Shown: piece by piece, positions 1,828 to 46,423 of the stretch | How the letters are laid out: each line of letters starts with the position of its first letter | How positions within the stretch are numbered: the stretch's first letter is position 1 | Source: Octopus vulgaris | Taxonomy: Eukaryota | Direction of reading: 5' to 3' | Assembly: GCA_951406725.2 (NCBI GenBank) | Contig: CATOCA020000001.1 | Location: 5,828,001-5,892,000, forward strand | Length of the DNA: 64,000 nucleotides | The notes under the pieces: generated by a model | What the model was told of the DNA's origin: nothing | Seen by the model: only the letters and a program-made list of their open reading frames with translations | Databases searched by the model: none | Position numbers and translations under genes: made by a program

Positions 1828-3312
1828 TGTGGGAAGGAAATAAATATTCGTCTGTCAAAATTCTTTATTTATTTAATTTCTAATGAACATAAATGGGATA
1901 TACTAATACTATATTCACTTACACATGCATAAACTAAGAATATGCAAAAGAAACTAATAAATTATGGTAACTAAATATTTAGGGGTGAAAAAAGTATTCG
2001 TAGGAAATAAATGTATGATTTTCTATGCCACAAAATACTGTTAAAATATTTTTTTACTAGAAATTTCTTGTTTATTCCAATAATCTTATCAGTTTTCATT
2101 TTTGAGTGTCAAAACACTAGCTTCTTCATTCAGCACTGAGACAACATAAAGTAATATCGCAATAATGGCGAAAAGTAAAGAACTCACAAATTCAGAGAAA
2201 AACTTAATTATTGAACTGTAAAAAGTAGGTAAAAGTTACAGGAAAATATCAGAGACACTTTGTATTCCGCTTACTACCATATCTTCATTTATTCAAAGAT
2301 ATAAGGAATCGGGAACTGTTGAAAACAGAATAAGATCCGGAGCACCACGCAAGATTTCCCCAAGATCTTTAAGAAAAATGAAGCGAAGAATTGGAAAAAA
2401 ACGCAATAATCACCAGAAAGGAGTTTTCATAGGAATGAACTGAAGTCACGCTCTCCTAGAAAAACTCCTCTGTTGACTAAAAGGCATAGAGATGCCCGTT
2501 TAAAATTTGTTATGAACATAAAGATAAATCTGATACATTCTGGGAAAATGTTCTATGGACAGACGAGACGAAAATTGAATTGTTTGGACGAAATTCGCCT
2601 ACCCATGTTTGGAGTAAAAACACAATTCCTACCGTAAAGATTGGAGGTGTGGGGGTGTTTCTCTGCAAATGGTACTGGCAATTTACATGTGATAGATGGT
2701 AGAAGGAATGCAGAGATGTACCAAAATATTTTGAACAATAATTTATGGGACTCTATTGAAAAGCTCCAGCTTTGTGAAGGGTGGGTTTTACAATAGGGTA
2801 ACGGCCCTAAGCACACGGTGAAGTCTACCAAATATGGATTGTCAATCACAATATAAAATTATTGTAATGGCCAAGCCTGTCACCTGACTTGAACCCCATT
2901 GAAAATTTGTGGCGTTATTTGAAAACTGAAATTCAAGAACCCCAACATGCATTACAGATTTGAAGAAAATTTGTCAAGAAGAATAGGAAAAAATTCCTAA
3001 AGAAACATGCGAGTCATTGGTGAAGAACTAAAAGAAGATATTGGTTGAAGTGGAACTGAATAATGGTTATGCTACGAAGTATCATATCAGAATTATCAGT
3101 TATTTATATTCTGTACGAATACTTTTTTCACCCCTAAATATTTATAATTGTATATAAATTCCTTAGTTACTATAATTTATTAGTTTCTTTTGCATATTCT
3201 TAGTTTATGCACCTGTATGCAAATATATAATAGTGGTATATCCCATTTATGTTCATTAGAAATTAAATAAAGAAAGAATTTTGACATGCACGAATATTTA
3301 TTTCCCCCCGTG
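1827..3312 (+). mobile_element. Full-length decayed Tc1/mariner DNA transposon with ~180-200 bp IR/DR-type terminal inverted repeats, inserted in (TA)n
   Basis: Left end 1827-~2003 (..GGAAATAAATATTCGT..TCAAAATTCTTT..AATGAACATAAATGGGATATAC..GGGGTGAAAAAAGTATTCGTA) is the reverse complement of ~3113-3312. Each TIR has an outer and an inner copy of GG(G/A)AA(A/T)AA(A/G)TATTCGT. TA flanks both ends. Confidence 0.93.
2165..3085 (+). pseudogene. Tc1-family DDE transposase pseudogene
   Basis: Starts MAKSKELTNSEKNLIIEL* (TAA 2219-2221), then KSYRKISETL..RSGAPRKIS, WENVLWTDETKIELFG, VWGCFSANG, GPKHT and WPSLSPDLNPIENLW. Several stops and frameshifts. Confidence 0.92.
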
Positions 3313-4059: not shown

Positions 4060-4202
4060 ATGTGTGTTTTGTGAAGACGAAGTGGCCACAGAGACGTTCT
4101 TTCCATGTAAACATCTTTCGCTGTGTAAGAAATGCTGTCCCCAAAAGATACCTAAACGATGCCCTACGTGTGGACAGAAGATAACGAACAAAAATAGTTT
4201 GG
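4060..4202 (+). CDS. Internal exon encoding a C3HC4 RING finger (MIB/IAP-type spacing) of a RING + Death-domain protein
   Basis: Acceptor ttcctcAG at 4059. Translation CVFCEDEVATETFFPCKHLSLCKKCCPQKIPKRCPTCGQKITNKNSL. Donor G|GTAATA at 4203, phase 1. Upstream exons were not found and are presumably outside the window. Confidence 0.88.
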
Positions 4203-5013
4203 GTAATAATACTGTATGATCTGTCTGTTTGTCTCATGGGCTTTATGGTGTGGAGTATTGTATTTCATGTTGTTGTGTAGATCCAGTTCTGACTTAATCA
4301 AGCACACTTTTGATAAAAGATGTTCCAGGTGTCTTTTCTCTGTCATATTATGTCTCTCACTACTCCCACTAAACATTGTTCTTGTCCAATTAGAAGACTT
4401 GTCACACTTCAAGATGGTTACTTTCTGCAACATAAAAATAATAAAGAATACTGAATTATAAATGGTGACTAAATACCAATAAATCACCAAGGTTCTATCA
4501 GTAAATACCGACATTTTGTGTGTGATTAGAGTGATTAATGATTTATCAATATCTTCGGAAGCTGATAATTAAAAACAACTGCATTTATATGAATATCAGA
4601 GTGAGCCTTTATAAAATAGGAGACTCAATAAGAAAATATCAACTGAGGGTTTTGGGACCAACATTAGAGAGGGGACATCAAAAGGGTGGGAAACTTTGAT
4701 TGATGTATAGATTAGTATTCCCGAGTATCAGTTCTTCTGAACCGTTTCAAATATTTTCACAGCAATAATGTGTGGATGACAAGTTTTATGTCGTTAATGA
4801 GGTTTTGTGTGAATGTAGTGTGTTAATTTAGGACACGAGATATCACTTCCTGTTAGACCTGATGTCACTTTCTGTTCGACCTGCTTTATTCAGGAGGATG
4901 AATGACATTGAAATATCTTCAGATATTTCCCCACATCTGATTACATTCTGGAGAACTGTGATGTGGGTAATTAAGATTAAAGATTACTAGTAGTAACCAA
5001 TAACAAAGAGAAC

Positions 5014-5075
<62 letters not shown>

Positions 5076-5537
5076 TGAAGTGGTGTTTGGTGATTGGGGT
5101 TGGATATTCGATGCGCAACTTGGTTGACATTTGAATTTAGCAGAAGATGAGACGAATATTGGTTAGAGATCTCTGGAGGTGAAATGACGATGTCTTGTCA
5201 AAGATCTGGAACAAACATAAGAAAACCAAAACGAAACTAAGAGAGAATCTGTTGTTATTAGGTGATAATTAAATTAGATAATTTCAGAATTGTTAGAATT
5301 GCTGGATGCCTTAAGAGACAGAGAAGGGTTGTTAAGTGTAGTTTATGCTGTTGTGGACCTAAATTTTGAATAATTACATTGTAATACTGTAGAAATTATA
5401 CAAATGCTCTCCAAAATCATGATGGTCACCAGTTGACCAATGATGATAGGATTGTCTAACAATAATAAAACATCGATTATTAATAATGATAAAGACTTTT
5501 TTCTACAGTGTTTAAAACATGAAATTGTTTATTTCAG

Positions 5538-5588
5538 AGGGTCCAAAGTCGTCAAAGCCGGAAGTCCAGATGTTGGCAGAACCACCTG
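5538..5588 (+). CDS. 51-nt phase 1-1 microexon (linker EGPKSSKPEVQMLAEPP) of the RING-Death gene
   Basis: Acceptor tgtttatttcAG and donor G|GTGAGT. In frame with the RING exon, no stops. Confidence 0.75.
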
Positions 5589-5694
5589 GTGAGTAGAAAA
5601 TAACTGTACCTAATTATGTAAGACCATAAGAAGCATAGGGTTGGTTTCCCGGTTCCCCCGAGGTATATATTCCTCCATGAACAGGACGCTAGTC

Positions 5695-6070
5695 ATCATC
5701 ATTCATCATCATCATTATTTAGCGTCCGCTTTCCATGCTAGCATGGGTTGGACGGTTCAACTGGGGTCTGGGAATCCAGAAGGCTGCACCAGGCCCGGTC
5801 TGATCTGGCAAAGCTTCTACGACTGGATGCCCTTCCTAACGCCAACCACTCCGTGAATGTAGTGGGTGCTTTTTACGTGCCACCGGCACAGGTACCAGAC
5901 GAGGCTGGCAAACGGTCACGATTGGAAGGTGCTTTTTACGTGCCATCGGCACAGAGGCCAGTCGGGCGGCACTGGTAACGGCCACGTTCGGATGGTTCTT
6001 TTACGTACCACCGGCACTGGTATCACAGCTACAATTTCCATTGATGTTGATCGATTTTGATTTTGATTTA
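5695..6070 (-). mobile_element. Non-autonomous retroposon (RTE-associated SINE-like) with (ATG)n tail and internal tandem repeats
   Basis: CATCATCAT..TTTAGCGTCCGCTTTCCATGCTAGCATGGGTTGGACG..GGATGCCCTTCCTAACGCCAACC, then three diverged GTGCTTTTTACGTGCCACCGGCAC units. Confidence 0.6.
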
Positions 6071-6259
6071 GTCCGCTGTAAAATTACATATTTTCGCCAG
6101 CTGAGTGGACTGAAGTGTTGGACATATTTTAATCATGTGATTTTGACTCAGAGGATTTAGTAACGAGGATTTATGTGGACTGGGCCTTCCTGATGTGCCT
6201 AACTTCCCCAGTGAATGATTTCCTTCAAACCGCTGAAAATGTGTTTGATACTCTGCATC

Positions 6260-7320
6260 AACCCCATTTCATAGCAAAGGCTCAAACTAGTCTCCTTTTT
6301 CATCAGAAAGATGATCTGACATCAAATCAATCAACAGTATTGTCAGACTTGGCAGAAAATTATAGTTTTGTAGAAAAGGATTCGGATCAAGGGTTTCATT
6401 GGAACAACTCCCAGGCCAATATATTCATCCATTCGCGATCTACTATAAGACTGGTTCAAACCCTCAATGCACTTCAATCTGTGTCATATCTGATTGTTTG
6501 AAACATGACAATACCAGAGTGCATGCTTTTATTACGAGGGTGATATCGCATATAAAGACAGAACTTCCATTCATAAACATCTCCTGTACTTCAGTGACGG
6601 TGCAGCCGACCAATACAAGAACTAGAGACACCAAACAAATCTCTGTCATCATCAGAATGATCAAGGACTTGAAGCGGAGTCGTATTTCTTTGCCATGTCA
6701 TGTGGAAAAAGTACATATGAGGGAATCAGTAGGATGACGAAATGTGTTGCTGAAAAAGCAAGTCTACAAGCAACCAGGAAAGACATTTTCTCACAGGTTG
6801 CAAGATGTATGGCTGAGCATGTGCAAGCATTCCAGAGATAATGTTCTTTGACATGTCGGCAGCCGATGTCATCCAAAATGAAAACAGCTTCGACTTGCTT
6901 TCACGAATCAGCAGCTCAGTGAAATTAGTTGGCACACGATCCCATCACCGCTTCGTCCCTTCTTCAAGATCTGATCGTCTAACGAAGAAGATATCAGCTG
7001 ATGACAATTTCACTCTTTTAGGTGAGGAGAGACCAGCATCTGAGCAAGATATTTCAAAGTTAAAGTCCTGAAAATATGTTGGATACACGAATGAAAATGA
7101 TTGGTACATTGGTTGTATCATTGAACTCTCAGATGAAAACCAAGATTTATTAATTTCATGCACCAATCAAACGCATGACTTCGGTCATGGCGTTCCTCGA
7201 TCTGTAGCAATGCTTGTCGGGTGCCCTAACCAAACATTATCTGATTGGTTTGAGCACCTGATACAGAGAGCCAGGTTTTATAAGCTGGCCCCTGAGGATC
7301 TGCTCTCATCCAGAAGAGGT
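6260..7320 (+). pseudogene. Decayed DDE transposase relic resembling Sola2-type elements
   Basis: Across frames: HFIAKAQ, DLAENYSF..QGFHWNNSQA.IHPF, CVISDCLKHD, FSDGAADQYKN, FFAMSCGKS, GTRSHHRFVP. This matches the DF(A/S)ENY..HW..SDG..QYKN..HGK motif order. The superfamily name is from memory and unverified. Confidence 0.65.
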
Positions 7321-7574
7321 TGTCATCGTTTATATATAGTTATTTTTACAATCAAAAATACAAAACGTATAATAATGATCTAATTAGATAATTGTCTGTT
7401 AATATGTAATCAATGAATTGTAAATCAATAACATCTCAAATAATACCATAAGCATTTCAGTATGAAAATAATATGATTTAAAATATAAATTTTTATATGT
7501 AAAATAAGATCCTTTTTACCAAATAGGCGGCTTATATCTGCCCTTTTATTGATCTTGTGTGATCATTTTCAGGG

Positions 7575-7945
7575 GAGGAAATGAGTCGAGTATATCGACC
7601 CCAGTACAAAACTGGTACTTATTTTATTTACCCTGAAAAAATAAAAGGCAAAGACAACCTCGGTGGAATTTTAAACTCAGAACGTGAAGACGGACGAAAC
7701 GCCACTCGGCATTTTGTTCGGCGCGCCACCGATTCTGCTAGTTCGCCGCTTTAATATTATTAAATAATAGATAAGGTGACCCCTGGCAGAATCGTTAATG
7801 CACTTAACTGCATTTCGTCCGTCTTTAGGTTCTAATTTCAAATTCTGCCGAGGTTGACTTCGCCTTTTCACCCCTTCAGGGTCAAAAGGAAAATACCAGT
7901 TGTGTACTGGGGTCGATGTAATCAATGTACTCCCTCCCTGAGCTT
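7575..7945. mobile_element. Two diverged SINE copies in inverted (head-to-head) orientation
   Basis: 7575-7750 (ATCGACCCCAGTAC..CTGGTACT..AAAGGCAAAG..CCTCGG..GAATT) is mirrored by 7785-7945 (GCCGAGGTTGACTTCGCCTTT..TACCAGT..TACTGGGGTCGAT). Same family as the repeats at 33-37 kb. Confidence 0.7.
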
Positions 7946-8450
7946 GCTGGTCCTGTCACTTTTATTGACCTTGTGTGATAAAAGTTCTGTCAGAGAACTG
8001 TGCAATTTTGTTAAAAAACACATATTGGAAAAATAAAATTAACTATGAAGAAGACAAGAAGAGACTTTGAGATTTTGAACAAATAAAGCGTAGATGTATA
8101 CAATCTTGGAGAATGAGTTTCGATCCATTGTTGAATAGGACACATGGTGAAGTGGCGAGTTGAAAATTGTCAAAAACGCGATTTTTACACGCGGAACGAG
8201 TTTCAGAGGCCTCTAAATATAATATCGTATATTGTGAATATTCTTATCATAGGTAGATCATTTCTCAAACTGTAGAACCTCAACAGAACTTAGCACATTC
8301 AAGTAACATTCTACACCTTATTACTCTCTGTAGTTTTACAATTTTCCTTGGTTACATGACCACATCCATACGAACCGTGATTATGGTCCCTATGTTTCAG
8401 TATGTTCGTGATGGTATTGTGTTTTTGCTTCATTTCATAGGAAACACTAT

Positions 8451-8654
8451 ACTCTTTTACTCTTTTACTTATTTCAGTCATTTGACTGCGGCCATGCTGG
8501 AGCACCGCCTTTAATCGAGCAACTCGACCCCGGGACTTATTCTTTAGTAAGCCCAGTACTTATTCTATCGGTCTCCTTTGCCGAACCCCTAAGTAACGGG
8601 GACATAAACACACCAGCATCGGTTGTCAAACACAGACACACAAACACACACACG

Positions 8655-8745
<91 letters not shown>

Positions 8746-8916
8746 ATATATACAACGGGCTTCTTTCAGTTTCCGTCTACCAAATCCAGTCACAAGGCTT
8801 TGGTCGGCCCGAGGCTACAGCAGAAAACACATGCCCAAGGTGCCACACAGTGGGACTGAACCCGGAACCATGTGGCTGGTAAAGAAGCTACTTTACCACA
8901 CAGCCACTCCTGCGCC
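8451..8916 (-). mobile_element. tRNA-derived CORE-like SINE (dominant family), full length with internal (TA)n
   Basis: Reverse complement of GGCGCAGGAGTGGCTGTGTGGTAA..GGTTCAGTCCCACTG..CTTGGGCA..GGCGGTGCTCCAGCATGGCCGCAG..(GAGTAAAA)n. Confidence 0.9.
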
Positions 8917-9169
8917 TATGCTGTGGAACATTTCTGTATACGTATTTGACACTAATTAGATGTATTTTATAAAGCATTTTAGAAACATTTTCAGTGATGG
9001 TGGAATGGGGTGTGACAAGGCTTTCATATTCCTTGTGATGTTGTTAACTACGACATCAGGAAGACGGTTTCTGTCAGGTAAATATTTCTACAGAGGTGTC
9101 CATTTCGTCCCCTCAGATTTGATTGAACTGAATTTTCAACCCATTCAGAGAAACCGCATTGATTAAGGG

Positions 9170-10030
9170 ACATCAACTAAGTGGCCAATTGAAGCCAATT
9201 TCAATCTTGAATGGCAAGATTTACATGGGTGTATTTGCTATGAAATCAGCTACATGTCAGCAAAATAATGGTTATATGACAGAAAATATCCAGAAGACTA
9301 GAATCCGGAGAATGTCTGTGTGTGTAGAACATGTATTTTAAATCTGGGATACCATATAAAAAGCAAAGAAGAATAAAAGAGATTCGGATATAGTATGGCT
9401 TCATCTGGCTAATGCTTATGGTTCTGTACCACACACATTGTTGATGGAAACAAGGAATTTCTTTCATAAATGGGAGGAGATTAAGGATCTGATGATGAGA
9501 TGCTATATCAGTTTCAAAATGTGTTTCATAGGATAGAATTTCACAAAAGACTGCCAGGTTCGGGTTCTGGAATAGCTGTAGGTTGCACAATATCAGTTGG
9601 TTGGTGATCTTTATAGTTATGCTAATTAGATTAACAGAATGTCCAGAAGAAATTGCTCAACGGAAAGATATTCATGGCTGACATAACAATACAAACAAGA
9701 GACTAAAAGGATATGCAAATAGTTCTGGTTAGTAGACTCCATAGAGTTAGTACTTAGTCAAGAATGTGGTTTCAAGCAAATAAGTAATGCAGTCTATAAT
9801 TTGTGAATGGTCAGCTGGAGCAAAGGAAGTTACGAACGGCAGGAGAACTCATGCCAAAAGTTAAAGACAAACCAAAAGTTAAAGATGGTGGTACGCTATC
9901 TTGTTGACTGATACATGCTGGGGTAGTGAGACCATGGCAAAGCTGAAGATGGACAGAAAACAACTGATAATTCAAAACTACTAAAGAAAATGCACAATTT
10001 CATGTTTCCAGTTGGATTTTGTTTATATAT
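9170..10030 (+). pseudogene. Decayed non-LTR retrotransposon RT fragment (HERO/NeSL-like), copy 1
   Basis: LKPISILNGKIYMG, QK..CVEH, VWLHLANAYGSVPH, GIAVGCTISV, IFMAD. Many stops and frameshifts. Confidence 0.7.
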
Positions 10031-10784
10031 TCTTCAGAATAAATTGTCAGTTCTCAATTTGGATATAATTCCTTTGTAATAATGTGTACGTGAACAGTTA
10101 TTTTGTAGTTAAGGATGTTTTGTACAAAAGTACAGTGTTTCAGGATACCTGTTATCGCTTACCTCTCCACCGTTGTAGAACTAATCATTGTTCACCTGAA
10201 AAAAGTCGCTTATTAAGGAGGAGGATTGACATTTCCTTAATCAGAATATATTCTGATGAAGTGTGATGTGGTCAGTTAAAGTTAAAGATTGCCAACAGTG
10301 ACCTTTAAAAAAGAGAGCGGGATTATGTTAATCCTACCTGAAACGATGTGTCATGGTTTTGTGGTCCGATTTTTGAGGACCAATTTGGTTGTCATGGAAT
10401 TAAGTAGAAAACGAGAAGAATGTTGATTAGTGAAGTCTAGAGATGAGAGGACAATCATGTCATAGATTAGATTAAATATAAGAAGGAGATTAGCAGTGTT
10501 AACAAGGGATTATTAAATGAGATAAGTGCAATGTTGTTAGATTATGTAGGATGTCTTAATAGTGAGAGGAGATTGAGGAAGGTCAGTCTATTTTGTAGTA
10601 GACCTATATATTGGGTATATTACACGGTCCCATGGTAGAGAGTATAAAAATGCTGACCAAAGCCATATTACTCACCAGTTGACCATTGATTACATGAATG
10701 TCTCACAATAATAAAATACAGAATTATTCATAAAGATAAAGAAGTTTTACTATGAAGTATAAAACCTGGAAATGTTTATTTCAG

Positions 10785-10835
10785 TGCGTCCAAAGGTTGA
10801 AGACAAGGCATCCCAGACAGAGGCTCAGCCACTTG
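10785..10835 (+). CDS. 51-nt phase 1-1 microexon (linker VRPKVEDKASQTEAQPL) of the RING-Death gene
   Basis: Acceptor tgtttatttcAG and donor G|GTGAGT. Paralogous to 5538-5588, including the flanking intron. Confidence 0.75.
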
Positions 10836-11829
10836 GTGAGTATAAAATAACTATATCTAATTGACTTCTTCAAATTTTACCTCCACCTGAACTACATAAT
10901 TTGTGTGAAAGACTGAGAAGCGGTTCTATTGATCTATTTCATTCGAATGTTTAGCTACAAAGTAATTCTGTTCTACTACAAATGCAGGAATATCCAATAA
11001 ATGGATTTTACAGAAATAGGGAAACATGAGACACAGGAAAAAGATCTCACACGATAAGGAAAAATACAAAAGATAAAATATAAAACCTGAAGCGGTTCGC
11101 TCCCCTTAAGGGGAATATTCACTCTTTCTATCATTTCGTTGCCATATTGTCATTTCTCTCTCTCTCTCTCTCTCTCTCTTACTATGGATGCATCTACAAG
11201 CCCATTGATATTACTGATTTGAAATTTAATAAAATGTCCAGCAGTGTTGGCGCTGTTGGTAAAATGGCTAAATTAGAAAACACAACAGACTTCATATTGT
11301 CTTTGGAATAAAGGAAAGCAATTTGTCGTTTAAAGGCAAAAACAGATGAGATAATGAGAGAGCTTGTTTGTTGTACATTTTAATAAGTTTCCTAATTGTT
11401 GTTGTTGTTGTCGGTCATTTTTAACAAGGTGACTAAGTTGAAAATTGTTACAAGTGTGAACACCCTCTCTTTTTTTCACTGATAGTAAATCTATCATTAC
11501 ATCCCCTAAACGTTGTGTTTATCCCAGTAGGAGACTTTGGTCTGCTGCTGAGACAATTGCTCTCTTTCTCTCTCCTCAATATTGGGTGCAAGATACAATG
11601 CAATCGATTATAGTGTCTTCATCATCGAATTGGCTGGGTGGTCACTATCCATGTCCTTATTCAGAATTACTGTCCACCTCGATTGCTTGAGAAACACATC
11701 TCCCTTAAACATTCCACCTTTCCTATGGTAGTATGCCTTTCTTAACACCAACCACTTTATAAAGGGTCCTGAGTACATTTTAATGTGGCAAAAGCACTAG
11801 AAAAAGAATTTCGTGTGTCCAACATTGAA

Positions 11830-12310
11830 ACTAGAATAGCTGTAGATTGCACAATATCCGTTACTTGGTTTGTGCTTGTTATGGGGATGCTGTTATGGGG
11901 ATCGGCAGATTTATCAGAAGAAATTATTCAAGGGAAATCACTTAAGAAGGCATTTATGGATGACATAAAAATAAGAAGAAGAGATCAAATGTTTATACAA
12001 TTAGTTCTGGATAGACTGGATGGACTAATTACTTGGTCAAGAATGCTGTCTAAAGCAACTACTTGATGCGGTCTGACATATGTCAAAGGTCAACAGAAAC
12101 AGGTAAAGTTCAAAATAGTAGGAGAAACTATGCCAAAAGTTTAAAAAATAATTGAGGACGATGCTACAATCCCACATTGTCTAATAAGAGTAGAGGCATT
12201 GAAGTCATTGCAGAAACCGAGGATGGGCGATAAGCATTTGCCAAGTCAAAACTTCTGGGCAAAAACAAGATTTGGTGCTTGAAGTTTGATCTATATCACC
12301 ATCTTGTTTA
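11830..12310 (+). pseudogene. Decayed HERO/NeSL-like RT fragment, copy 2
   Basis: IAVDCTISVTWFVLVM..KAFMDDIKI..LDRLDGLITWSRM. Colinear with 9570-10030. Confidence 0.72.
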
Positions 12311-13035
12311 TATATTCTTGAATATCACTTCTTTTGTACCTTTTCAAATATTTTTCTTTTGCAATAATCTGTGTATAAACATTTACATGTTGTTAAAGAT
12401 GTTTTGTGCAAGTATACAGTGTTTTAGGACACTTGTTATCACTTTCTGTTTCACCTCTGTAAAACTAATCATTGCTCACCTGGAATGAAAGCGGTTTCAT
12501 TAAGGAGTCTCAAAATATTTTATGAATCAGATGAAATTCTGGTGAACTGTGAGTTGCATAGATAAAATTAAAGGTCAAAACAAAGAAAACAGGTGTGTGT
12601 TGATCCTGCTTCAAGTGGTATGACATGAGTTTGTGTCAAGAGCATTTATAACCAACATGGTTAACACTGGATTAGTGAAGTCTACTGATGAGGGAACAAT
12701 GCTATCTCATAGGTTTAGCCCAGCTATAAAAAAGAAAAGAAATAAAAGGTGTTAACATGTGATAATTAAATGAGATGAATGCAACATTGATAGATCAAGA
12801 AGGTTGTCTTAATAGAAAAAGGAGGTTTAGGAAGATCAGTCTATTTTGTTATGGACCTAAATATTGAGCCATTTTATAAGACCACTGTAGAAAGTATAAA
12901 ACTGTCGACGAAACCTATAGTGGTCAGCAGTTGGCCATTGATGATAGGAATGTCTTACAATAATAAGATATAAACCATTAACAGAGATAGGGAAATTATA
13001 CTATGAAGTGTAACATGTGGAAACATTTATTTCAG

Positions 13036-13107
13036 ATATACTAACGCTAGAGGTGAAGCATCTACATCGGGTGTCCAAAAAGTTGGCCGGTAAATGGCAG
13101 CAACTTG
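13036..13107 (+). CDS. 72-nt phase 1-1 exon encoding the N-terminal part of a Death domain
   Basis: Acceptor tttatttcAG, translation DILTLEVKHLHRVSKKLAGKWQQL(G), donor G|GTGAGT. The L..V...L...W..LG pattern is typical of Death-domain helices 1-2. Confidence 0.85.
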
Positions 13108-13660
13108 GTGAGTATAAAATACCTAATTGATTTCTATAAATTTTGCTTTCAGTTAAACTTTTGACTGAGAACAGATTCCATTCCTAGTTTCCAATTGAAA
13201 GTTTAGCTATAAAGTAAAGATATCACTGAAATTTCATAAAATATCCACCGAGGTCAGCACAGGTGTAAAATATTTGAATTAGAAGATACAGTCGAGTTAA
13301 TATTGTCGTTTGTAAAAGGGGACTCAAGAATAATGGTGTTAAAGAGTAAACAGGTGAGTTAATGACAATGTTTTAGTTTGTTTACGTTTTTGGAAAGTTC
13401 ACAGATTGGTTGTTATTGTTGTTGTTGCTGAGGCAGATATCTGTTTTAATCTGGCAGAGTTAAGAGGGAAGGTTTCCAGATGTGACATCATTCTTTCTCT
13501 TGGATGAAGAGGACCACATTATCGAATGCAACCTTTTTAAACACGAGAGTTTGCATTATGTGTGACATGCTGTGTTCTCTTTGATTGTAGTTCTTTAGTC
13601 CCTGGTCAATATATAGTGCCAGTCTCTATAGAAAACAGTCCCCCATTGTTGACTGTGTCC

Positions 13661-13740
13661 ATGGCTGGATTGAACTCAGTATTGTAAATTAATGAAACTC
13701 ATGGCTGGATTGAACTCAGTATTGTAAATTAATGAAACTC
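13661..13740. repeat. Exact 40-bp tandem duplication
   Basis: ATGGCTGGATTGAACTCAGTATTGTAAATTAATGAAACTC occurs at 13661-13700 and 13701-13740. Confidence 0.95.
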
Positions 13741-14209
13741 ACGTTTCATCCGAAAATTCAAACTCAACTTGATTTTGTTTATCAATTGAAATCATTTCAC
13801 TCTCCTTTACTGGAAAGGCATGAACATCACAGTATCCCATTTCCTCTTGTCTGAAAGTTTAACAACATTAAATATCATTTATACAATATTCCTATTATTT
13901 ACAGCAATATCCCTATCGTGGTTCGTAGACTGAACCAGAAGAGAGATGTCTTTACCAGGACATTGAGCTGTGCTGGGGACTAGATTTGAACCTTTCATCC
14001 GTGACTCAAGAGGTTGTAACGTTATCCACTCAGTCAGCTGATTGAAATGATTTATCTAAATTAAGAGAGGACATCATTTGTGACATTGCTAATTTGTTAT
14101 TTCTCTAGCAGTCATACAAAATGTACCAGTCATATACTGGGGTAAAAATCAATCCATTAACACCAGTCCAATATAATCAACATCTTACGTTCATTTCTCC
14201 AAGTTTGTA

Positions 14210-15000
14210 TGTGTCAGACGACTTCTCCCACAGTCGTTGTGGTTGTTTGTCAGGTTTAATCGCTTGTTTTCTTCTACTTGAATTCCAGGCACTTCTTTAT
14301 CCAAATTTCATTTACCATATCCCTTCTAAATCTATACTATATTGTGCACTATCACAGATTCTTCTGAGACCCAGTTTTCCCTAACCCCAGGTTTTCAACA
14401 CATTAACATTACACTTCTAGTGATGTATGCTCACCTCATTTCTTGCCAGTTTTCCTGCATCTTCTACATTAAATGCAACATTGCACTTTATAAATACACC
14501 TCATGCAATCTCTCCTTCATTTGGAGACAGAATCCCATAGTTGGCTGTAGACATAACAGTTCCCTGTACATTTTCCATCCCATTTTTCCTCAAAGTACTG
14601 CACTTTGAGAATAGACCCCCACCCACCCACTTCTAATTATGTCTCTTAGGTTAGAGAAACTATATGTCTTTCATACTTGTTCTTACTACAAACTAATCCC
14701 GTGTATCTGCTACTTAAAAAGTCATTCCCCAACCCTAACCCGTCCTCCCTGTAAACTTGCCTGTGATACCACTGCACCTATTGCGTACATTAGATAAACC
14801 ATATAGAATTCCTATTAACCCCTTTTCTCTCCCCTGCATATAAATTGTGATAACTTTCCAGATGTTGTAGATGTTTGAGGATGCAGGGATTCTTTCAGGA
14901 CCCAAGTGTTGTAGGTGTATGGTGTAGATGTTCTGTTATTGCCTACAAACTAAAACTCTTCTCATTGCTTCGTTTACTCTTGGGCCTCTCCTGTAGGAGA
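14210..15000 (-). pseudogene. Highly decayed RTE-clade LINE RT/C-terminal fragment
   Basis: Minus-strand remnants MGWKMYRELLCL (compare GWKKFRELLPLL) and a DSFCYLGD-like stretch at ~14640-14665. Boundaries are approximate. Confidence 0.45.
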
Positions 15001-15986
15001 TTCTTTTGAAATTGTGGCCTTCAGCCAGTGAAGGAATCCCTTTTTAGGAGTCAGTATTCCAAAACTACCTTTTCAGCTGGTATCTTCTATAATATGTGAT
15101 ATGTACCTAACAGTGTTATATTTTTACTTTGTGCCGTTGAAGTCATTCCCCACTTTCGAGATATTTCTGAATTTTGATAATCTTTAATTATTTACAAATC
15201 ATAGGAGGGACCACATCACAGGTGACTATTTCAGTCTTTGAATATGGGATGTTATCAAAACGACTGAAATTGAGTTCCTCTGAAGAGTGCCTGGAGTAAC
15301 GCGTGCAGCTTCGAAATTTGGGTGTCTCTCCAGGTCAAACGACTGCTTCTCTGCATTGAGAGGTCACAACTGCTCCAATACTACCGGCATGTGATTAAAA
15401 TGTCTCAGGAAAGAATCATAAGAGGATTCATCGAGCTGAGCCAACTGACAGAAGACCTGGGGCTAAACCAAGAATAAATTTTTGCATAAAAACCATAGTT
15501 TCAATTGGTTGTGCTTGGAAATCCTCTCAGAATTTCTAATCAAGGTTACTTTAGATAGAATCGTATGAAGGAGGTGCCTGAGGACTCTACCCCTATAACC
15601 CTCCTATGAAGAGAGGGCAAAGAAATTGAATGGATAGATGAAATGGTGTAACTATTGGTAGTCTTTGTTGATTCTTGAGCTTTTCGTATACTGCTGCCCA
15701 CACAAACACTTCTGCCAGTTGTTTACCAGAAGATTTCTCATGTGTAACTTTCAATTTTATTCGATCCTTAAATGTTTTCTCCAATTCCAGCTTTTATTTC
15801 AACTTGTTTCTTATTTTTCTCAAACTCTTTAGAAACAGATAACAATGTCTTCTATTTTCCGTGTTTCTTCAGTATTTCTCATTCGTCTATTCACATAATT
15901 TCTTTGTCAGTTCTATAATTTACAGTTCACAGGTTTTATATTATCGTTAATGCTTTTGCAATTATTTCTTATTGTATCTTTTGCAG

Positions 15987-16192
15987 GAAGGGAATTAGAA
16001 ATTACAGACGAGGACCTGCAAATAGTCAGGCACGAAAATCCTTATAACATTGTGGAACAAGGCTATCAGATGCTTCTCAAATGGTTCCAAAGTTGCGATC
16101 CAGCGAAACGTACACCTCAAACATTAAAAGAAGCACTTTTAGAAACCGAATGTTTCGTGGCAGCTGAATGTTTATTATCAGACTTCAGTTGA
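15987..16192 (+). CDS. Terminal coding exon completing the Death domain
   Basis: Acceptor cttttgcAG at 15986, phase 1. Translation (G)RELEITDEDLQIVRHENPYNIVEQGYQMLLKWFQSCDPAKRTPQTLKEALLETECFVAAECLLSDFS*, with stop TGA at 16190-16192. EQ.YQML..W and T...L..AL are Death-domain hallmarks. Confidence 0.9.
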
Positions 16193-16426
16193 ATTTCTTG
16201 GAAATATTGCTGTTGTTTAACGCCAAGTTTACCTTCACCACACACAGGCATATGATTAAATGCCTTCCATCCAGGACCATCATGTTTTCCTTGTCTAATG
16301 TGTCATTCTTTAAGATGATAAGTGATGAATGGAGTAGGATTCGGCTACTAATTCTAGCAGATCTATTTACCACATGGAGATCTCTTTATTTGTTTAGCTC
16401 CCTTTTTGTTGGAGATTAACTTTGGA

Positions 16427-16432
16427 AATAAA
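16427..16432 (+). promoter_or_regulatory. Candidate polyadenylation signal of the RING-Death gene
   Basis: AATAAA ~235 nt after the stop codon, followed by a GT-rich tract (TTGTTATTGGTGTTGTTGTTG). Confidence 0.6.
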
Positions 16433-16669
16433 GATTGAAATTTCATTTGTTATTGGTGTTGTTGTTGTAAGCCCCGGCATCTCCCTAAATACTTCCATTG
16501 TTATATAAACAGTTTAAATATCCTGTGAAATTTTCCCAAAAAAGGAAAGTGTAATTCCATTTTGTGAAACTTACTTAAAATGTATATTTTGCTGTCAAAT
16601 AGAACCTCCTTATAGACACGATTGTTAGTAAATATACAGTTTCTATTTCTCTCAGCCAATAGTTTTACA

Positions 16670-18150
16670 TTAGGCTTCATCCAAACTCTAGAAAGTGAAA
16701 CTTACAGCTGACCACGGGAGAAGAATTGTGTTGGAAGATATATTCCAGTTTGTTTAAATGTCTGTTCCTGTGCTTTGTTGCATGTCAAGGCAAAGAGTGG
16801 TTCCACAGGAAATTGTTTGTATGGTAACTATGAATGGGAACTCCATTCCTTGAGACCCATTTGGAATCCCTGAGATTGATCCTGCAAAAGAATCACAAGC
16901 AACCCCGGCAGCAATAATAAGTTCTTGGAAGTAGATAATAACGTAGCCTGTGTCATTGCAATGGTCTTGTTTAGCATCTAAATTCTTCAAAAACCTAATG
17001 CAGCCTCTTGTCTTTCGTGTGAGGATATGTCCATGGAAACCCTGATGGTAGGAGTTTGTTGATGAATTTGATTAGGTACAGAGCTTCTTTATCAACTGTA
17101 TCTGAGCTTCTGCATATCTTTACCTCACCAGGGATCCTGGTCAACATGAATTCATTTACAAATTGTGATATTTCATTTGTTGGAGTAATAATGGGTCTGT
17201 TTGCAAGCCACATGGGGTCTCTGAAATTATTTGCAAGACAACATCACATAAACTTGACAGGCCAAAGTTGTAAAGCAGGTTGATTTTGGATGCACCTAGA
17301 CTTTGTTCGACAGAAATATCACCATTTCCAGCATCAAAATGGTGATTAACAGACTCCTTTTCATCAGAATGACCTTTTGTAAGAAGTCTTAGATTGGTTC
17401 CTATCTTCACTATTTCTACTCAATCCTCAAGAAAGGATCTGTATCAACAAATTATAATCTTCCAAGATGACATAACTGCAAGAATTTGTTTTCTATCACC
17501 AGACAGTAATATAGTAAATTCACAAACAGGTTTGTTACAGTCTCACACATCATTCAATCTCCTTTCAAGGCACTCACAGAGATGCTTAGGCCCCATCCTG
17601 GTCCCATCGATAACTAAGAGACCAGATTGAGGCACAAATTCTCTTGTGGCATCTCTCTTTGTGAGTCTTAATATTGATTTTGTAGTCTCACTGAGAGAAA
17701 TCCTGGACATAGAATGAAGAACTCTCCCTTTCAGAAGCAAAGTGGTTGCAATAGTAGACGTGGGAGTAGCAACTATCAAGTATGATGTTGATTACATAGG
17801 TTTTCCCTGTGCCACCATTTGCATTTAAGAACAGAATTCTTCCTTCTTTTACTATTTATGGACCTGATAGCTTTATCAAAATCTAGTCGTTGTTCAATGT
17901 CTAAAGTTGGCAGAAGTTTATTAATACATTTTTTCACCTTAAAAATGGTTTCTTCTCTAAGCCCAATTGGAATATTAGCTACTTCAACAATTCTTGTATC
18001 TGGTCAAGGAAGACCATTGTGGCTGTAGATATGGAAGCTGTCAACTTCAAGCTTCCTTTGGATATTTATAAGAAAAATGTTCACTTTCCGTTTAGAGACG
18101 ATTTCTTCATTGTTCTGGTGCATATTTTCTTCAGCAACATAATTCTTCCA
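16670..18150 (-). pseudogene. Helitron (Pif1-like) helicase relic
   Basis: Minus-strand motifs in the expected order: GGTGKT (~17800-17817), STIATTLLLKGRVLHS, LLVIDG, LLSGDRKQIL, RPIITPTNE, KNLD..HCND, QFPV..FALTCNKAQ, FSRGQL*VSLSR. Frameshifted. Confidence 0.85.
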
Positions 18151-18968: not shown

Positions 18969-19454
18969 TTAGTTAGTTAGTTAGTTAGTTAATTTGGCTC
19001 AAAAGCAAATAGCAAGGCCATGTAGGGGGACATGGAGTTAAGTACAGGGTGGTGTTCATGTAAAAAGTTCAGGCCACTTGAGGTCCAGGGAGGCTTTGAA
19101 CAAAGCGGTCGTCGGCATCTTCACCATCTCGTCTGGCAGCTTGTTCCACGGATCCGCAACCCGGACGGAGAAAGCTCCTCTCCTTCGATTGAGATGAAAT
19201 CGTCTCAGGTAGAGCTTTTCGGAATGACCCCGCAGCCGACGCTCTGGAGCAGGAGTGAAGAACAGTTCTTTCGAGAGGTTACACTTTCCGCTTATGATGT
19301 TGTGGGCGAGAATGAGATCACCACGGCGGCGGCGTTTTTCAAGAGAATAAAGGTCGAGCGTCTTCAGCCTTTCTTCGTAGGACAAATTTTTGAGACCATG
19401 AACCATGCGGGTAGCCAGCTTCTGGACTCTTTCGAGATGCTGTATGTTTAACAC
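18969..19454 (-). mobile_element. 5'-truncated CR1-clade LINE 3' end with (TAAC)n tail
   Basis: ORF 19056-19454: LERVQKLATRMV..SYEERLKTLDLYSLEKRRRRGDLI..LRGH..FSVRVADPWNKLP. (TTAG)n at 18969-18991. Confidence 0.9.
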
Positions 19455-19624
19455 TTCGATCTATTATTTGCATGAAATCATATTTGGAAATCTTCACAAA
19501 CTGCGCAGAAAAACAGATTTTATTTCGCATAAAAGAAAACAATAGAATTTAAAGTAAAAGGGATCTAATAAGAGTTATTATTCTTACCGTTTCAACGTTG
19601 ACTCCTCCCACTTCATCGTATACG

Positions 19625-37808: not shown

Positions 37809-38757
<949 letters not shown>

Positions 38758-39085
38758 ATATTTGTGTGCAAGTGTTTAGGTGTGTGCAACCATTTATGAA
38801 TGTATGTATGCATATATGTAGGGATATATTTATTTACAAATATATATTCATGTATGTGTGTGTGCCTGTGTATTACTGTGGCTTACGATTGTATTTCGTT
38901 CTGTAGCCATTACTTAATAAATAAAACTTTATTTCTTTAGTCTGAAAGAAAAGGAAGGGACACAAAACTTTTATAATGTTGTATGATTTTCACAACTTAC
39001 CACATTTATATATTGTCATTTAAGCCCAATTGCCTTAAATTCGGGACATACTCTCTCTTTCTCTCTATCTCTCTCCTCTCTCTCT

Positions 39086-39138
<53 letters not shown>

Positions 39139-39165
39139 ATATATATATATTTATATATATATGTA

Positions 39166-39212
<47 letters not shown>

Positions 39213-39235
39213 AATATATATATGTATATATATAT

Positions 39236-39281
<46 letters not shown>

Positions 39282-39343
39282 TATATACATATATATATAC
39301 ATAAATATATATATATTTACATACGTATATACGTAGATACATT

Positions 39344-39378
<35 letters not shown>

Positions 39379-39703
39379 CTTGGATGTTCATCAGTGTTTT
39401 GTTTCTTTCTATTTACATATATAAATATTTTATATATCACTCCCAAGAAGTCCTATTTTTTTAGTTTTCATCTTTCCTGTCTCTCTCCTTCTCTTCCGCC
39501 TCTCTCACTTTCTTCATTTATACAAATCATATACATACATAGAAATATACATAATTGCATGTATACACAATAAGAAACATATATACATGCATCTTACATA
39601 CACACACAGAAACATATATACATAGATCATACATACATACATACACTCACGCATACATACATACACAAGGCCCGAAAATTTTCGGGGAGGGGACCAGTCG
39701 ATA

Positions 39704-40362
<659 letters not shown>

Positions 40363-40569
40363 ATACATGTGTATTTTAATGTGCATACATACATACATAT
40401 ATATATAAATATGCATACATACATACATACATGCATACATGCATACATTCATTCATAGATACATACATACATTCATACATACATACATACATACATACAT
40501 GTAGGGTGAATGTATGTTTGATTAAAGTTATATGTGTGTATATTGTAGCGTGAGTGTTAGCGAGTAGAG

Positions 40570-40638
<69 letters not shown>

Positions 40639-40767
40639 ATTAGGGCTTAGTAAAATAAATTACTTTGCCACATACTGAACTTGCTAGAAATAGCAGCCCC
40701 AAAAAAGTTTTTTTGCCATTTCCACTACTTAAAGAAAATTTCTCTCAGATAATTTTACCCTCAATTG

Positions 40768-40815
<48 letters not shown>

Positions 40816-40822
40816 ACATATA

Positions 40823-40885
<63 letters not shown>

Positions 40886-40961
40886 ATATATATATATATA
40901 TATGCACATATATATATATATACTTATATATCTAACATCTATCTATCTATCTATCTATCTA

Positions 40962-41002
<41 letters not shown>

Positions 41003-41005
<3 letters not shown>

Positions 41006-41412
41006 TGTGTGGTAAGTAGCTTGGTTCTAACAAACTAAATGGTTCCGGGTTCAGTCACACTGCGTGGCATCTTGGGCAAGTGTCTTCTGCTATAGCCTCG
41101 GGCCGACCAATGCCTTGTGAGTGGATTTCGTAGACGGAAACTGAAAGAAGCCTGTCGTATATATGTATATATGTATAAGTGTGTGTGTGTATATTTTGTG
41201 TGTCTGTGTTTGTCCCCCTAGCATTGCTTTACAACCGATTCTGGTGTGTTTACGTCCCCGTCACTTAGCGGTTTGGAAAAACAGACCGATAGAATAAGTA
41301 TTGGGCTTACAAAGATTAAGTCCCGGGGTCGATTTGCTCGACTAAAGGCGTTGCTCCAGCATGGCCGCACTCAAATGACTGAAACAAGTAAAAGAGTAAA
41401 AGAGTAAAGAGT
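41003..41412 (+). mobile_element. Dominant SINE (array copies at 49633-50038 and 55720-56126)
   Basis: GGCTGTGTGGTAAGTAGC..GGCGTTGCTCCAGCATGGCCGCAC..GTAAAAGAGTAAAAGAG. Confidence 0.9.
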
Positions 41413-41572
41413 ATATATATATACATATATATATATGTACACATATATCTATACATCTAGCTATTTATCTATCTATCTATATATATATAATATATACTTT
41501 ATAAAGCATATTACTCTACCACTGGTATTTGAGTACTCTTTTTTTCCACCTTGTTTCACATTTATGTGTTTA

Positions 41573-41626
<54 letters not shown>

Positions 41627-42206
41627 TTAGAGATAGTATAAAATCTTTATAAGGATTTATCAAGTAGTTAGCGTGAAAAGCGTCATAAGAGAAAAATCCA
41701 CCATCTTTTTCATTTAAATGTATTTTTTTATATTATATAGAGGGCATTACTATACATAAATGCCACACGCTAGGAGGAATTCATAAAGTCAGAACTACCA
41801 AAATATATAAACACATTGTAAAAGTATTATTTATAGCTGAATGTTCTTCTTGACACTAATAAACCTAACAACAGTCATCGTGTTGTGTCTCTAGGTTAGC
41901 TACATTCCTCTGCTTACATCTTGAGCTACAAATCTGTGGATCATACCCCAGCTAGGGTGGGGGCTCTTTATATGAAAAATAAATTGATTCTCTAAAGAAA
42001 GGTAGATTTATGAAAACTAGTAAAAGAATCAATGACACAGAATTTGTACAATAAAACCTCCGGTATTGATCTTTGATCTGATCTCATCTACGTTGCTAAT
42101 ATTTCGACAGACACTATCAACAAGTGCTTACTTAATAAATTTTTGTAAATATCTTTATGACTATTTCACAATTATTTAATAAATTTCCATTATATATATA
42201 TATATG

Positions 42207-42273
<67 letters not shown>

Positions 42274-42301
42274 TATATATATATGTATATAATATATATA
42301 T

Positions 42302-42397
<96 letters not shown>

Positions 42398-42399
<2 letters not shown>

Positions 42400-43036
42400 A
42401 CCACTGATGGTCCTATGGAAAACATTCGTCCTCAGCCGCTTGGACTACTGCTCCCAACTTTGGTCACCACACAATATAAAACAAACAGCAGAACTCGAAG
42501 CAATTCAGAGAAGCTACACAAAGAAAATCGTCTCAATGCAAAATATCAGCTACTGGGAAAGACTGAAGGTATTAAACCTCTTCTCCCTAGAGCGGAGGCG
42601 GGAGAGATATGCAGTGATATACATCTGGAAAATCCTGGAGGGTCTTGTCCCAAAATTTGGCATTCAAAGTTACTCCAACCGCAGAACGGGGCGCCGCTGC
42701 GTGGTGCCAAGGATTCCAACATCACCATCAAAATACAGGCCCAGATACTGCAACAGCTTGGGTTTCAGAGGACCACAGCTCTTTAACATCCTCCCTAAAT
42801 GCCTGAGAGACTTACATGGTGTGGATGTGGGTTTCTTTAAAACTAAACTGGATCTCTTCTTGTTGGGAGTCCCAGATGAACCTACCTCACGACAGGAGAC
42901 GCGGATGCGGGCAGCAGCATCGAACTCCCTTGTTGATCAAGTGCCACGTATCAGAGGTGGATTCACAAACTAGTGTAGCTCATTCAGCGGTGGTGCCCCA
43001 GCATGGCCGCGGCTTTCGGGCAAAAACATTTTTTAT

Positions 43037-43038
<2 letters not shown>
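42398..43038 (+). mobile_element. 5'-truncated CR1/L2-group LINE 3' end inside (TA)n, copy 1
   Basis: [78 protein letters not shown], stop at 42973. Confidence 0.9.
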
Positions 43039-43080
<42 letters not shown>

Positions 43081-43637
43081 TTATATACTAACATCATCAT
43101 CATCATCATCATCATCATCACCACCATGCTGAAAATAGCAGCCATTATCTGACTCTAAAACAACCTTAAGTCAATCTTAAGTCAAAACAGGTAGACAATC
43201 TAGTTTATCTAATCCCCTCTCTATAAAGCTGTTCAATGTTCATTCTCACTCACTTTTTGACTCTTTCTCACTCTCTGTCTGACTCGCTCCCAGCAAAGAA
43301 GGACATTGTGGAAGACAATTTAAATGCTAGAAATAGCAGCAAAACAACTCCTTAGAAATATGCTATGATGATTTTAACAATATATATATATATATATTTA
43401 TTTATATATATATATGTATATATATATGTGTGTGTGTATATATATACATGTATATATGTGTGTATATATATATCTATATATTTACTTATATATATATATA
43501 TGTGTGTGTGCATATATATATATGTATGTATATGTGTATGTATATATATATATTTATATACATGCAAGTATATATGTGTGTATATATATATATATGTATA
43601 TATGTATGTATATATGAATATATATATATATATATAC

Positions 43638-43668
<31 letters not shown>

Positions 43669-43672
43669 CATG

Positions 43673-43729
<57 letters not shown>

Positions 43730-43754
43730 GTTTCATCCTTGTTATTTCGTCAAC

Positions 43755-43860
<106 letters not shown>

Positions 43861-44118: not shown

Positions 44119-44205
<87 letters not shown>

Positions 44206-46229: not shown

Positions 46230-46423
46230 AACATGCTTTCTGTGTTATGTCCCAAGAAGATTTTATATATTTTTATATATTTTTATATATTTTTATGTAT
46301 TTTTATATAATTTTTATGACGAAAAATGCGAGCGATGTATAAGTACGCAGGCAAAGCAGAGTTATAACAGAGTAATTTCCCTTCATTTTTAACGGTATTT
46401 TTTCATAACGTTTTCAAATAGCC

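What the first reader, a model, noticed from the sequence alone, without database searches (positions are those of the whole stretch)
4060..16192. Hidden spliced gene: RING-finger E3 ligase with a C-terminal Death domain
Seen: five exons joined by GT-AG phase-1 introns form one open frame, CVFC..PCKH..CKKC..CPTC (RING) - two 17-aa linkers - LHRVSKKLAGKWQQLGRELEI..EQGYQMLLKW..TLKEAL (Death domain) - stop. The ORF track shows only two disconnected pieces. Established: in Mind bomb and IAP-type ligases this RING type is normally C-terminal, and Death domains mediate TLR, TNFR and apoptotic adaptor assembly. Inference: this is a lineage-specific ubiquitin ligase that could be recruited to death-fold signalling complexes, possibly one of an expanded cephalopod MIB-like immune family.
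Basis: partly seen in the sequence, partly recalled or inferred. Interest (0 to 1): 0.75.

Follow-up and report, generated by a model that had tools for sequence, protein, structure and literature searches.

The report
Octopus death-domain adaptor with LC8 exons
This spliced octopus gene, one of about 85 RING-plus-death-domain copies (some broken), joins ankyrin repeats and a RING finger derived from the Mind bomb 2 gene to a death domain; because it kept the RING that human Mind bomb 2 does not need for tagging proteins with ubiquitin, it likely works as a signalling adaptor, and a tiny duplicated linker exon carries a predicted binding site for the dimer-forming protein LC8.

Summary
The five exons are real and open. 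All four junctions occur in RNA-like contigs, though paralogs share exons. O. sinensis RefSeq 'MIB2-like' X5 matches 171 of 173 residues, and ankyrin exons lie upstream. The family is large: 85 of 105 RING hits have a Death exon just downstream. This scan noted the family before on other DNA (e1-8662395).

Three things are new here.
(1) The RING descends from MIB2's internal RING1 (shared introns, tree). In human MIB2 that RING is dispensable for ubiquitylation, the catalytic terminal RING is gone, and the linchpin Arg is Gly. 'E3 ligase' is therefore doubtful.
(2) The linkers are tandemly duplicated phase-1 micro-exons, 0-10 per gene and variably included in RefSeq isoforms. 57 of 124 carry an LC8/DYNLL-type motif in one register (window: DKASQTE, in a predicted disordered stretch).
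(3) The same micro-exon-plus-Death cassette, introns included, ends octopus adhesion-GPCR genes.

Best reading: an exon-shuffled Death-domain adaptor, probably dimerised by LC8. Binding, catalysis and any immune role are untested. This copy's first ankyrin exons were not found.

The parts
4060..4202 (+). RING exon (C3HC4), homologous to the internal RING1 exon of MIB2; phase 2 in, phase 1 out; ends C-P-T-C-G (Gly codon 4172-4174 where MIB1 RING3 has Arg996)
   Evidence: PMC10925295
5538..5588 (+). 51-nt phase 1-1 linker micro-exon; Gln in the motif register but Pro at -3 and Met at +1, so a degenerate motif
   Evidence: junction 4202/5538
10785..10835 (+). 51-nt phase 1-1 linker micro-exon carrying the LC8-type motif
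   Evidence: junctions
10802..10822 (+). Codons for DKASQTE, a predicted LC8/DYNLL-binding motif (5 of 6 consensus positions; Ser at -1 is off-consensus)
   Evidence: consensus from the PMC3078936 abstract; disorder
13036..13107 (+). 72-nt phase 1-1 exon encoding Death-domain helix 1 and part of helix 2; same splice flanks and intron homology as the linker exons
15987..16192 (+). Terminal Death-domain exon with stop codon
5094..5615 (+). Intron-plus-exon module about 69% identical to 10359-10862 and to the stretch before 13036: the linker exons arose by tandem duplication with their introns; the same flank precedes the Death helix-1 exons in an adhesion-GPCR locus
9175..17500 (+). 3' block (motif exon plus Death exons) 97% identical to two paralogs that carry a different RING subtype: mosaic gene

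Best explanation
This is a spliced gene of a large Octopus family in which the last ankyrin repeats and the internal RING1 of MIB2 are joined, at a phase-1 intron, to duplicated micro-exons and a Death domain in place of MIB2's catalytic terminal RING; the protein likely acts as a non-catalytic Death-domain adaptor that is predicted to be dimerised by the hub protein LC8 through its linker motif. Shown: the exon chain, the domains, the MIB2-RING1 origin, family size, the motif in fixed register, variable exon number between paralogs and between RefSeq isoforms, and the same cassette on adhesion-GPCR genes. Inferred: (a) the ankyrin repeats bind a target; (b) the Death domain docks on another Death domain, the nearest candidates being family members or the related Death tails of octopus LRR adhesion GPCRs; (c) LC8 binds the linker and pairs two chains, replacing the coiled-coil/RING dimer lost with MIB2's last exon; (d) exon copy number and splicing set how many LC8 dimers can bind (one site in this copy, up to eight in paralogs) and so the threshold for assembly. 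My odds: origin 0.9; LC8 binding somewhere in the family 0.7, for this copy's motif 0.55; little or no ligase activity in this copy 0.55; GPCR tail as partner 0.25.
For: Origin: octopus MIB2 (C26) has ANK-RING1-RING2. Its last two ANK exons and its RING1 exon share end positions and phases (0-0, 0-2, 2-1) with this gene. MIB2 RING1 as query finds family RINGs at up to 57 bits against 32.5 for MIB1 RING1. In a tree of 47 distinct RINGs, a 34-row clade of family RINGs plus two RING1s of MIB2-like duplicates (96/94) is sister to MIB2 RING1 (82/68, weak), and the 7 terminal RINGs form their own clade (95/89). MIB2 duplicates that still carry RING2 exist on C26, C27 and C20. Function of RING1: PMC7815719, PMC10925295 and PMC5345843 (passages). 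Motif: 57 of 124 linker exons versus 0 of 39 Death helix-1 exons in 40 intervals, and 1 of 30 GPCR-tail micro-exons. 9 of 14 exon types carry it versus a shuffle mean of 0.17, maximum 3 in 20,000. The Gln is the best-kept residue between types (0.53; others 0.33 or less) while its third base varies like the others. 23 motifs in 1159 linker residues versus 0 in 4487 pre-RING residues of 19 proteins. Published binders Bmf EDKATQTL (PMC3078936) and gephyrin EDKGVQCE (PMC12057147) differ by 1-2 residues from family motifs. The linker has pLDDT below 50 (residues 322-359). LC8 is encoded in the genome. Isoforms carry 1-4 linker exons in O. sinensis and 3-5 in O. bimaculoides. Cassette sharing.
Against: The micro-exons are in register with the Death helix-1 exon, which already has acidic-Lys at -4/-3 and sometimes Gln at 0, so the motif needed few changes and the exon types are not independent. 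67 of 124 linker exons lack the motif; 18 of 40 genes have none; in the largest type only 24% keep it, with many Gln-to-Lys changes. The window's motif has Ser at -1; 'SQT' had 0 occurrences in the main text of two LC8 papers and 1 unseen occurrence in a third. All eight zinc ligands are intact. XIAP has Tyr after the last Cys, so losing Arg does not exclude ligase activity. 16 of 39 family RINGs end in P-I-C-R like MIB1 RING3. Tree support for MIB2 RING1 as sister is weak (45 columns). The first 76 residues of the O. sinensis orthologue were not found in 36 kb upstream. RNA joints cannot be tied to this copy.
Confidence: 0.5

Rival explanations
1. Active ubiquitin ligase recruited by its Death domain. 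The MIB2-derived RING has regained E2 binding and ubiquitylates partners in Death-fold complexes; LC8, if it binds, would supply the dimer that this RING type needs.
For: C3HC4 ligands intact and Pfam zf-C3HC4_3 over cut-off. Nearest solved RINGs are cIAP/XIAP. Phe and Pro sit at two E2-contact positions. 16 of 39 family RINGs have PICR. Human MIB2 ubiquitylates RIPK1 and cFLIP (PMC5912950, PMC7815719, passages).
Against: RING1 lineage. Thr and Gly stand where MIB1 has I994 and R996. The terminal RING exon, which in MIB1 supplies dimer and activity (PMC10925295), is absent. MIB2 binds RIPK1 through the MZM domain (PMC5912950), which this family lacks.
Confidence: 0.3
2. The QT motifs are accidental relics of a duplicated Death helix-1 exon. 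The micro-exons are only a variable-length spacer, and LC8 plays no part.
For: Same flanks and register as the helix-1 exon. More than half of the exons lack the motif, and 36-nt versions delete it. GPCR tails use the same cassette almost without the motif.
Against: Gln is kept with synonymous variation across 14 types. The motif persists in diverged exons of O. bimaculoides. 0 of 39 helix-1 exons have it.
Confidence: 0.3
3. This particular copy is a 5'-truncated or decaying duplicate, and the RNA signal comes from paralogs.
For: The first two ankyrin exons were not found upstream. Some loose ends fit other copies or alleles. Broken copies exist, for example the frameshifted C31:7.88 Mb copy with an identical last exon.
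Against: All nine exons found (four upstream, five here) keep frame and splice sites. The O. sinensis model matches 171 of 173 aa. The direct 5588/10785 joint fits this copy's layout, though skipping in a paralog gives it too. An in-frame Met lies in the upstream ankyrin exons, where some family models start.
Confidence: 0.2

Closest known systems
Mind bomb 2 (MIB2; human, Drosophila, octopus C26 gene)
   Same: Last ankyrin repeats and RING1, with the same intron positions and phases.
   Different: No MZM/REP substrate-binding region and no terminal catalytic RING; a micro-exon linker and a Death domain instead; about 85 copies.
RefSeq/GenBank 'E3 ubiquitin-protein ligase MIB1/MIB2-like' models of O. 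sinensis, O. vulgaris and O. bimaculoides (e.g. XP_036370781.1)
   Same: Same proteins, with Ank, zf-C3HC4_3 and Death domains precomputed.
   Different: The source names imply ligase activity; RING identity, linker motifs and cassette origin are not stated in them.
Multivalent LC8 clients (ASCIZ with 11 sites, Nup159 with 5; PMC5963919)
   Same: Tandem QT-type motifs in a disordered region next to folded domains.
   Different: Here each motif is its own symmetric exon, so the number changes by exon duplication and splicing; binding is only predicted.
Octopus-specific adhesion GPCR group 3 (Ritschard et al. 2019, PMC6408891)
   Same: One O. bimaculoides member was reported with a Death domain. 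Here GPCR Death tails fall among the family's Death domains and share the micro-exon cassette with intron homology.
   Different: Membrane receptors; tail micro-exons nearly lack the LC8 motif (1 of 30).
Oyster IAPs with RING and Death domains (PMC8917759)
   Same: Molluscan lineage-specific expansion combining RING and Death domains.
   Different: BIR-containing IAPs; no BIR on P0012; a different origin.

Membership tests
Mind bomb (MIB1/MIB2) | N-terminal Mib-HERC2/ZZ and MIB repeats | tested here: not met
   None in Pfam scans of 8 family proteins; the 10 PF06701 matches in the genome include none on C29-C31.
Mind bomb (MIB1/MIB2) | Ankyrin array followed by an internal RING | tested here: met
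   Upstream exons and shared introns with MIB2.
Mind bomb (MIB1/MIB2) | Terminal catalytic RING | tested here: not met
   Replaced by micro-exons and Death. So MIB2-derived, not a member.
Active IAP/MIB-type RING E3 | C3HC4 zinc ligands | tested here: met
Active IAP/MIB-type RING E3 | E2-contact residues (MIB1 V965, P993, I994, R996; PMC10925295) | tested here: inconclusive
   Phe, Pro, Thr, Gly here; XIAP also lacks the Arg.
Active IAP/MIB-type RING E3 | Ubiquitin transfer in vitro | not testable with these tools
   Needs an assay.
IAP | BIR domain | tested here: not met
   No BIR on P0012 or 7 other family proteins.
Death domain superfamily | Six-helix Death fold | tested here: met
   Pfam 34.4 bits. 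A model of a close paralog fragment (P0016, 91 of 108 identical) matches FADD DD at Z 14.5, rmsd 1.6, 87 aligned, tied with p84 and ankyrin-G DDs; Foldseek best is RIPK1 DD, E 3.4e-3.
Death domain superfamily | Homotypic partner binding | not tested
   No complex was modelled.
LC8/DYNLL clients | [D/S]-K-x-[T/V/I]-Q-[T/V]-[D/E] motif (PMC3078936) | tested here: met
   DKASQTE meets 5 of 6; 28 of 124 family exons meet 5 or 6.
LC8/DYNLL clients | Motif in a disordered intracellular segment | tested here: met
   pLDDT below 50 over residues 322-359 of P0012; a prediction only.
LC8/DYNLL clients | Physical binding to the LC8 dimer | not tested
   Needs ITC or pull-down.

The most novel reading that the evidence does not exclude
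Octopuses built their own Death-domain signalling system by shuffling one exon cassette onto two gene families: LRR adhesion GPCRs (receptors with Death tails) and about 85 MIB2-derived ankyrin-RING adaptors. In the adaptors each micro-exon is one LC8 site, so duplication and alternative splicing dial the number of LC8 dimers (0-8) and with it the assembly threshold of each adaptor.
Probability: 0.2. Interest if true: 0.85.

Novelty: new variant of a known kind. Interest (0 to 1): 0.62.

Why it matters
An expansion of about 85 genes, concentrated on a few short contigs, carries an automatic 'E3 ligase MIB2-like' label that is probably misleading. It is a clear, recent case of exon shuffling with intermediates still in the genome. 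If the LC8 reading holds, it gives a natural series of proteins with 0-8 LC8 sites encoded one per exon, which makes the role of LC8 valency in Death-domain assembly directly testable. It also points to candidate receptors (Death-tailed adhesion GPCRs) for a cephalopod signalling pathway that the papers I searched do not describe.

Tried and rejected
No run was on record as RNA; the 14 holders guessed as RNA carry no tissue labels, so immune expression could not be examined. Exon skipping (4202 to 10785) was not among the displayed joints (24 and 17 joints not shown), so alternative splicing rests on RefSeq models plus loose ends. Whole-protein PDB and Foldseek searches and a 'longer' homolog search were swamped by ankyrin repeats and say nothing on range. 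The ESM Atlas gave only ANK+RING clusters at 0.85 or below, which are leads only. The Death-domain tree did not resolve a root, so whether the GPCR or the RING gene donated the cassette is open. MIB1 RING2 is split by an intron and was left out of the RING tree. The idea that the shared intron flank is a dispersed repeat was rejected: 0 hits in 367 kb of five control sets versus 3 hits in the 54-kb GPCR locus. Four literature searches aimed at this family in octopus and searches listed no paper describing it. The library lacks most subscription journals, and I read no supplements (Ritschard table S3 and genome-paper gene-family tables may bear on novelty).
Full report
Observation. Pfam finds zf-C3HC4_3 (E 5e-9) and Death (E 7e-5 on the last exon alone). 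The chain is already annotated in O. sinensis as 'MIB2-like isoform X5' (P0012, XP_036370781.1), 171 of 173 residues identical. In contigs of 7 runs guessed to be RNA, the four joints appear in 6, 1, 7 and 6 runs; none appears in the run that covers introns evenly. Exons 2-4 are identical in 4-5 fetched paralogs, and exon 5 in one frameshifted copy. So the RNA shows that the family splices this way, not that this copy does.

Rest of the gene. Four ankyrin exons lie 1.6-11.3 kb upstream of the window on the same strand and keep frame with the RING exon. The exons for the first 76 residues of P0012 were not found in the next 36 kb, where a head-to-head paralog begins. AlphaFold2 on P0012 (24 sequences, mean pLDDT 82.7) gives ankyrin repeats, a RING, a low-confidence linker (322-359) and six helices. 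A paralog fragment's model matches Death domains of FADD, p84, ankyrin-G, RAIDD and RIPK1 at Z 13-14.5, with no clear nearest.

Family. The Death exon has 140 matches among 150 scored candidates, 89 of them on C29-C31. I merged the RING hits, dropping duplicates, MIB1, MIB2 and extra tandem RINGs on C30. Of the 105 left, 85 have a same-strand Death hit within 30 kb downstream and 2 upstream. These are floors and include broken copies. Every named RING-Death protein came from O. vulgaris, O. sinensis or O. bimaculoides (only 10 of the 150 hits were looked up for names there). The window gene is a mosaic: its 3' 8 kb is 97% identical to two paralogs with another RING subtype.

Origin of the RING. 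The genome's MIB2 on C26 has ankyrins, an internal RING and a terminal RING. Its last two ankyrin exons and its internal RING exon end at the same positions and phases as in this gene; the terminal-RING exon starts at the phase-1 intron where the micro-exons start here. The internal RING finds family RINGs at up to 57 bits and MIB1 RING1 at 32.5. In a 47-row tree the family RINGs group with MIB2 RING1 (82/68, weak) and apart from all terminal RINGs (95/89). Duplicates that keep both RINGs survive on C26, C27 and C20. In human MIB2 the RING1 mutant still ubiquitylates cFLIP and the RING2 mutant does not (PMC7815719, passages). In MIB1 only ccRING3 transfers ubiquitin and drives dimerisation, with V965, M989, P993, I994 and R996 touching the E2 (PMC10925295, passages). 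PMC5345843 (abstract and passages) says the same of the terminal RING. This copy has Phe, Pro, Thr and Gly at four of those sites. Against a dead RING: zinc ligands are intact, XIAP lacks the Arg too, and 16 of 39 family RINGs end in PICR.

Linker exons. The three middle exons sit in duplicated intron modules about 69% alike. I scanned 40 RING-to-Death intervals, chosen as relatives of this RING or Death exon (500,900 bp), for the shared splice flanks. That gave 194 sense hits, 163 of them open and in frame, against 36 antisense hits. Of the 163, 39 are Death helix-1 exons and 124 are linkers, 0-10 per gene. 57 linkers carry [KR]x[TVISM]Q[TVS] with Gln always at codon 11; no helix-1 exon does; 22 of 40 genes have at least one, 13 have two or more, and the maximum is 8. 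This pattern is my relaxation of the published consensus [D/S]Kx[T/V/I]Q[T/V][D/E] (PMC3078936, abstract and passages), widened after seeing the exons. Across 14 exon types (71 distinct sequences) 9 carry it, and the Gln is the best-kept residue while its third base varies. In 19 of 47 stored proteins with both domains recognised, isoforms included, 23 motifs fall in 1159 linker residues and 0 in 4487 upstream residues (shuffle mean 0.59, maximum 4). RefSeq isoforms include 1-4 linker exons in O. sinensis and 3-5 in O. bimaculoides. Loose ends in X1, X5 and X10 show an extra linker exon, absent from this copy, spliced at 5588 or 10785. Against: the exons share ancestry with the helix-1 exon, which already had part of the motif; 67 of 124 lack it; and the window's motif has Ser at -1. 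LC8 occupancy tunes activity in ASCIZ (PMC5963919, passages); PMC12057147 (passages) describes the anchor and the gephyrin motif.

Shared cassette. The profile search returned an O. bimaculoides LRR-GPS-7TM receptor ending in this Death type (P0156; all three models of its cluster). Ritschard et al. mention one such Death-bearing GPCR (PMC6408891, passages). In this genome a 7TM exon at C2:152.433 Mb is followed by six micro-exons with the same donor flank, two helix-1 exons and a Death exon. That gene model is my inference, without RNA. The intron before the window's micro-exons is 68-74% identical over about 450 bp to three places there (E 4e-62 or lower) and has no match in 367 kb of controls. 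GPCR Death domains form a clade (98/90) among the family's; the root is unresolved. Only 1 of 30 GPCR micro-exons has the motif. An earlier scan note described such 36-base tail exons (e1-9569562).

Mechanism. The most likely reading is an adaptor: ankyrins bind a target, the Death domain docks on a Death partner, and LC8 pairs two chains through the linker in place of the lost MIB dimer. That these proteins dimerise through a coiled coil plus terminal RING is shown for MIB1 and inferred for MIB2. Exon number would set valency. Every step after the anatomy is inferred. Human MIB2's role at RIPK1 (PMC5912950, passages) makes a cell-death or immune setting plausible, but it uses the MZM domain that this family lacks. 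PMC8917759 (passages) shows RING-plus-Death combinations in oyster IAPs.

Verdict. Observation confirmed; interpretation partly supported. A new variant of known parts. It is present in databases under a ligase name and was not found described in the searches (listings only, open-access library, no supplements read). Interest 0.62.

Noticed in passing
window ~1830-3310: Decayed Tc1/mariner-like transposase between terminal inverted repeats (inverted match; the family name is recalled from reading the sequence, not from a profile search).
   Followed up: no
window 44604-46229 and 59323-60948 (+): Two identical-looking 541-aa ORFs that look like Penelope-type reverse transcriptase plus GIY-YIG (label recalled), inside a tandem segmental duplication (38375-47976 versus 53133-62727, 95.8%).
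   Followed up: no
window 19056-19460 (-), 42314-42973, 50802-51614, 56881-57714 (+): LINE-like reverse-transcriptase C-terminal fragments (label recalled).
   Followed up: no
L188 (G000:C30:5120001-5130000): At least 8 tandem RING exons of the family type within 7 kb, some frameshifted; possibly alternative RING exons.
   Followed up: no
G000:C1:102.71-102.73 Mb and 216.93-216.96 Mb: Tandem arrays of Death exons, most with in-frame stops.
   Followed up: no
G000:C26:0.75-1.32 Mb, C27:36.35 Mb, C20:45.05 Mb: MIB2-like duplicates; five fetched loci still have RING1 plus a terminal RING, and two of them have the family-type RING exon.
   Followed up: partly
C29 subfamily, e.g. L096-L098, L100-L118: RING1-derived RINGs ending in PICR, like catalytic RINGs: possible regain of E2 binding; their micro-exons often sit about 166 bp apart and many have Lys in place of the motif Gln.
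   Followed up: partly
G000:C2:152.03-152.09 Mb (L199, L200, L236-L239): Adhesion-GPCR tail with 13 near-identical 36-nt exons spaced about 2.75 kb apart, followed by a Death-like remnant.
   Followed up: partly
P0007/P0008; L073-L074; L225-L228: Duplicated Death helix-1 exons that could be used alternatively, giving Death domains with different first helices.
   Followed up: no
G000:C26:12.81-12.93 Mb (L206, L207): A divergent Death cluster with 75-nt helix-1 exons; upstream domains not identified.
   Followed up: no
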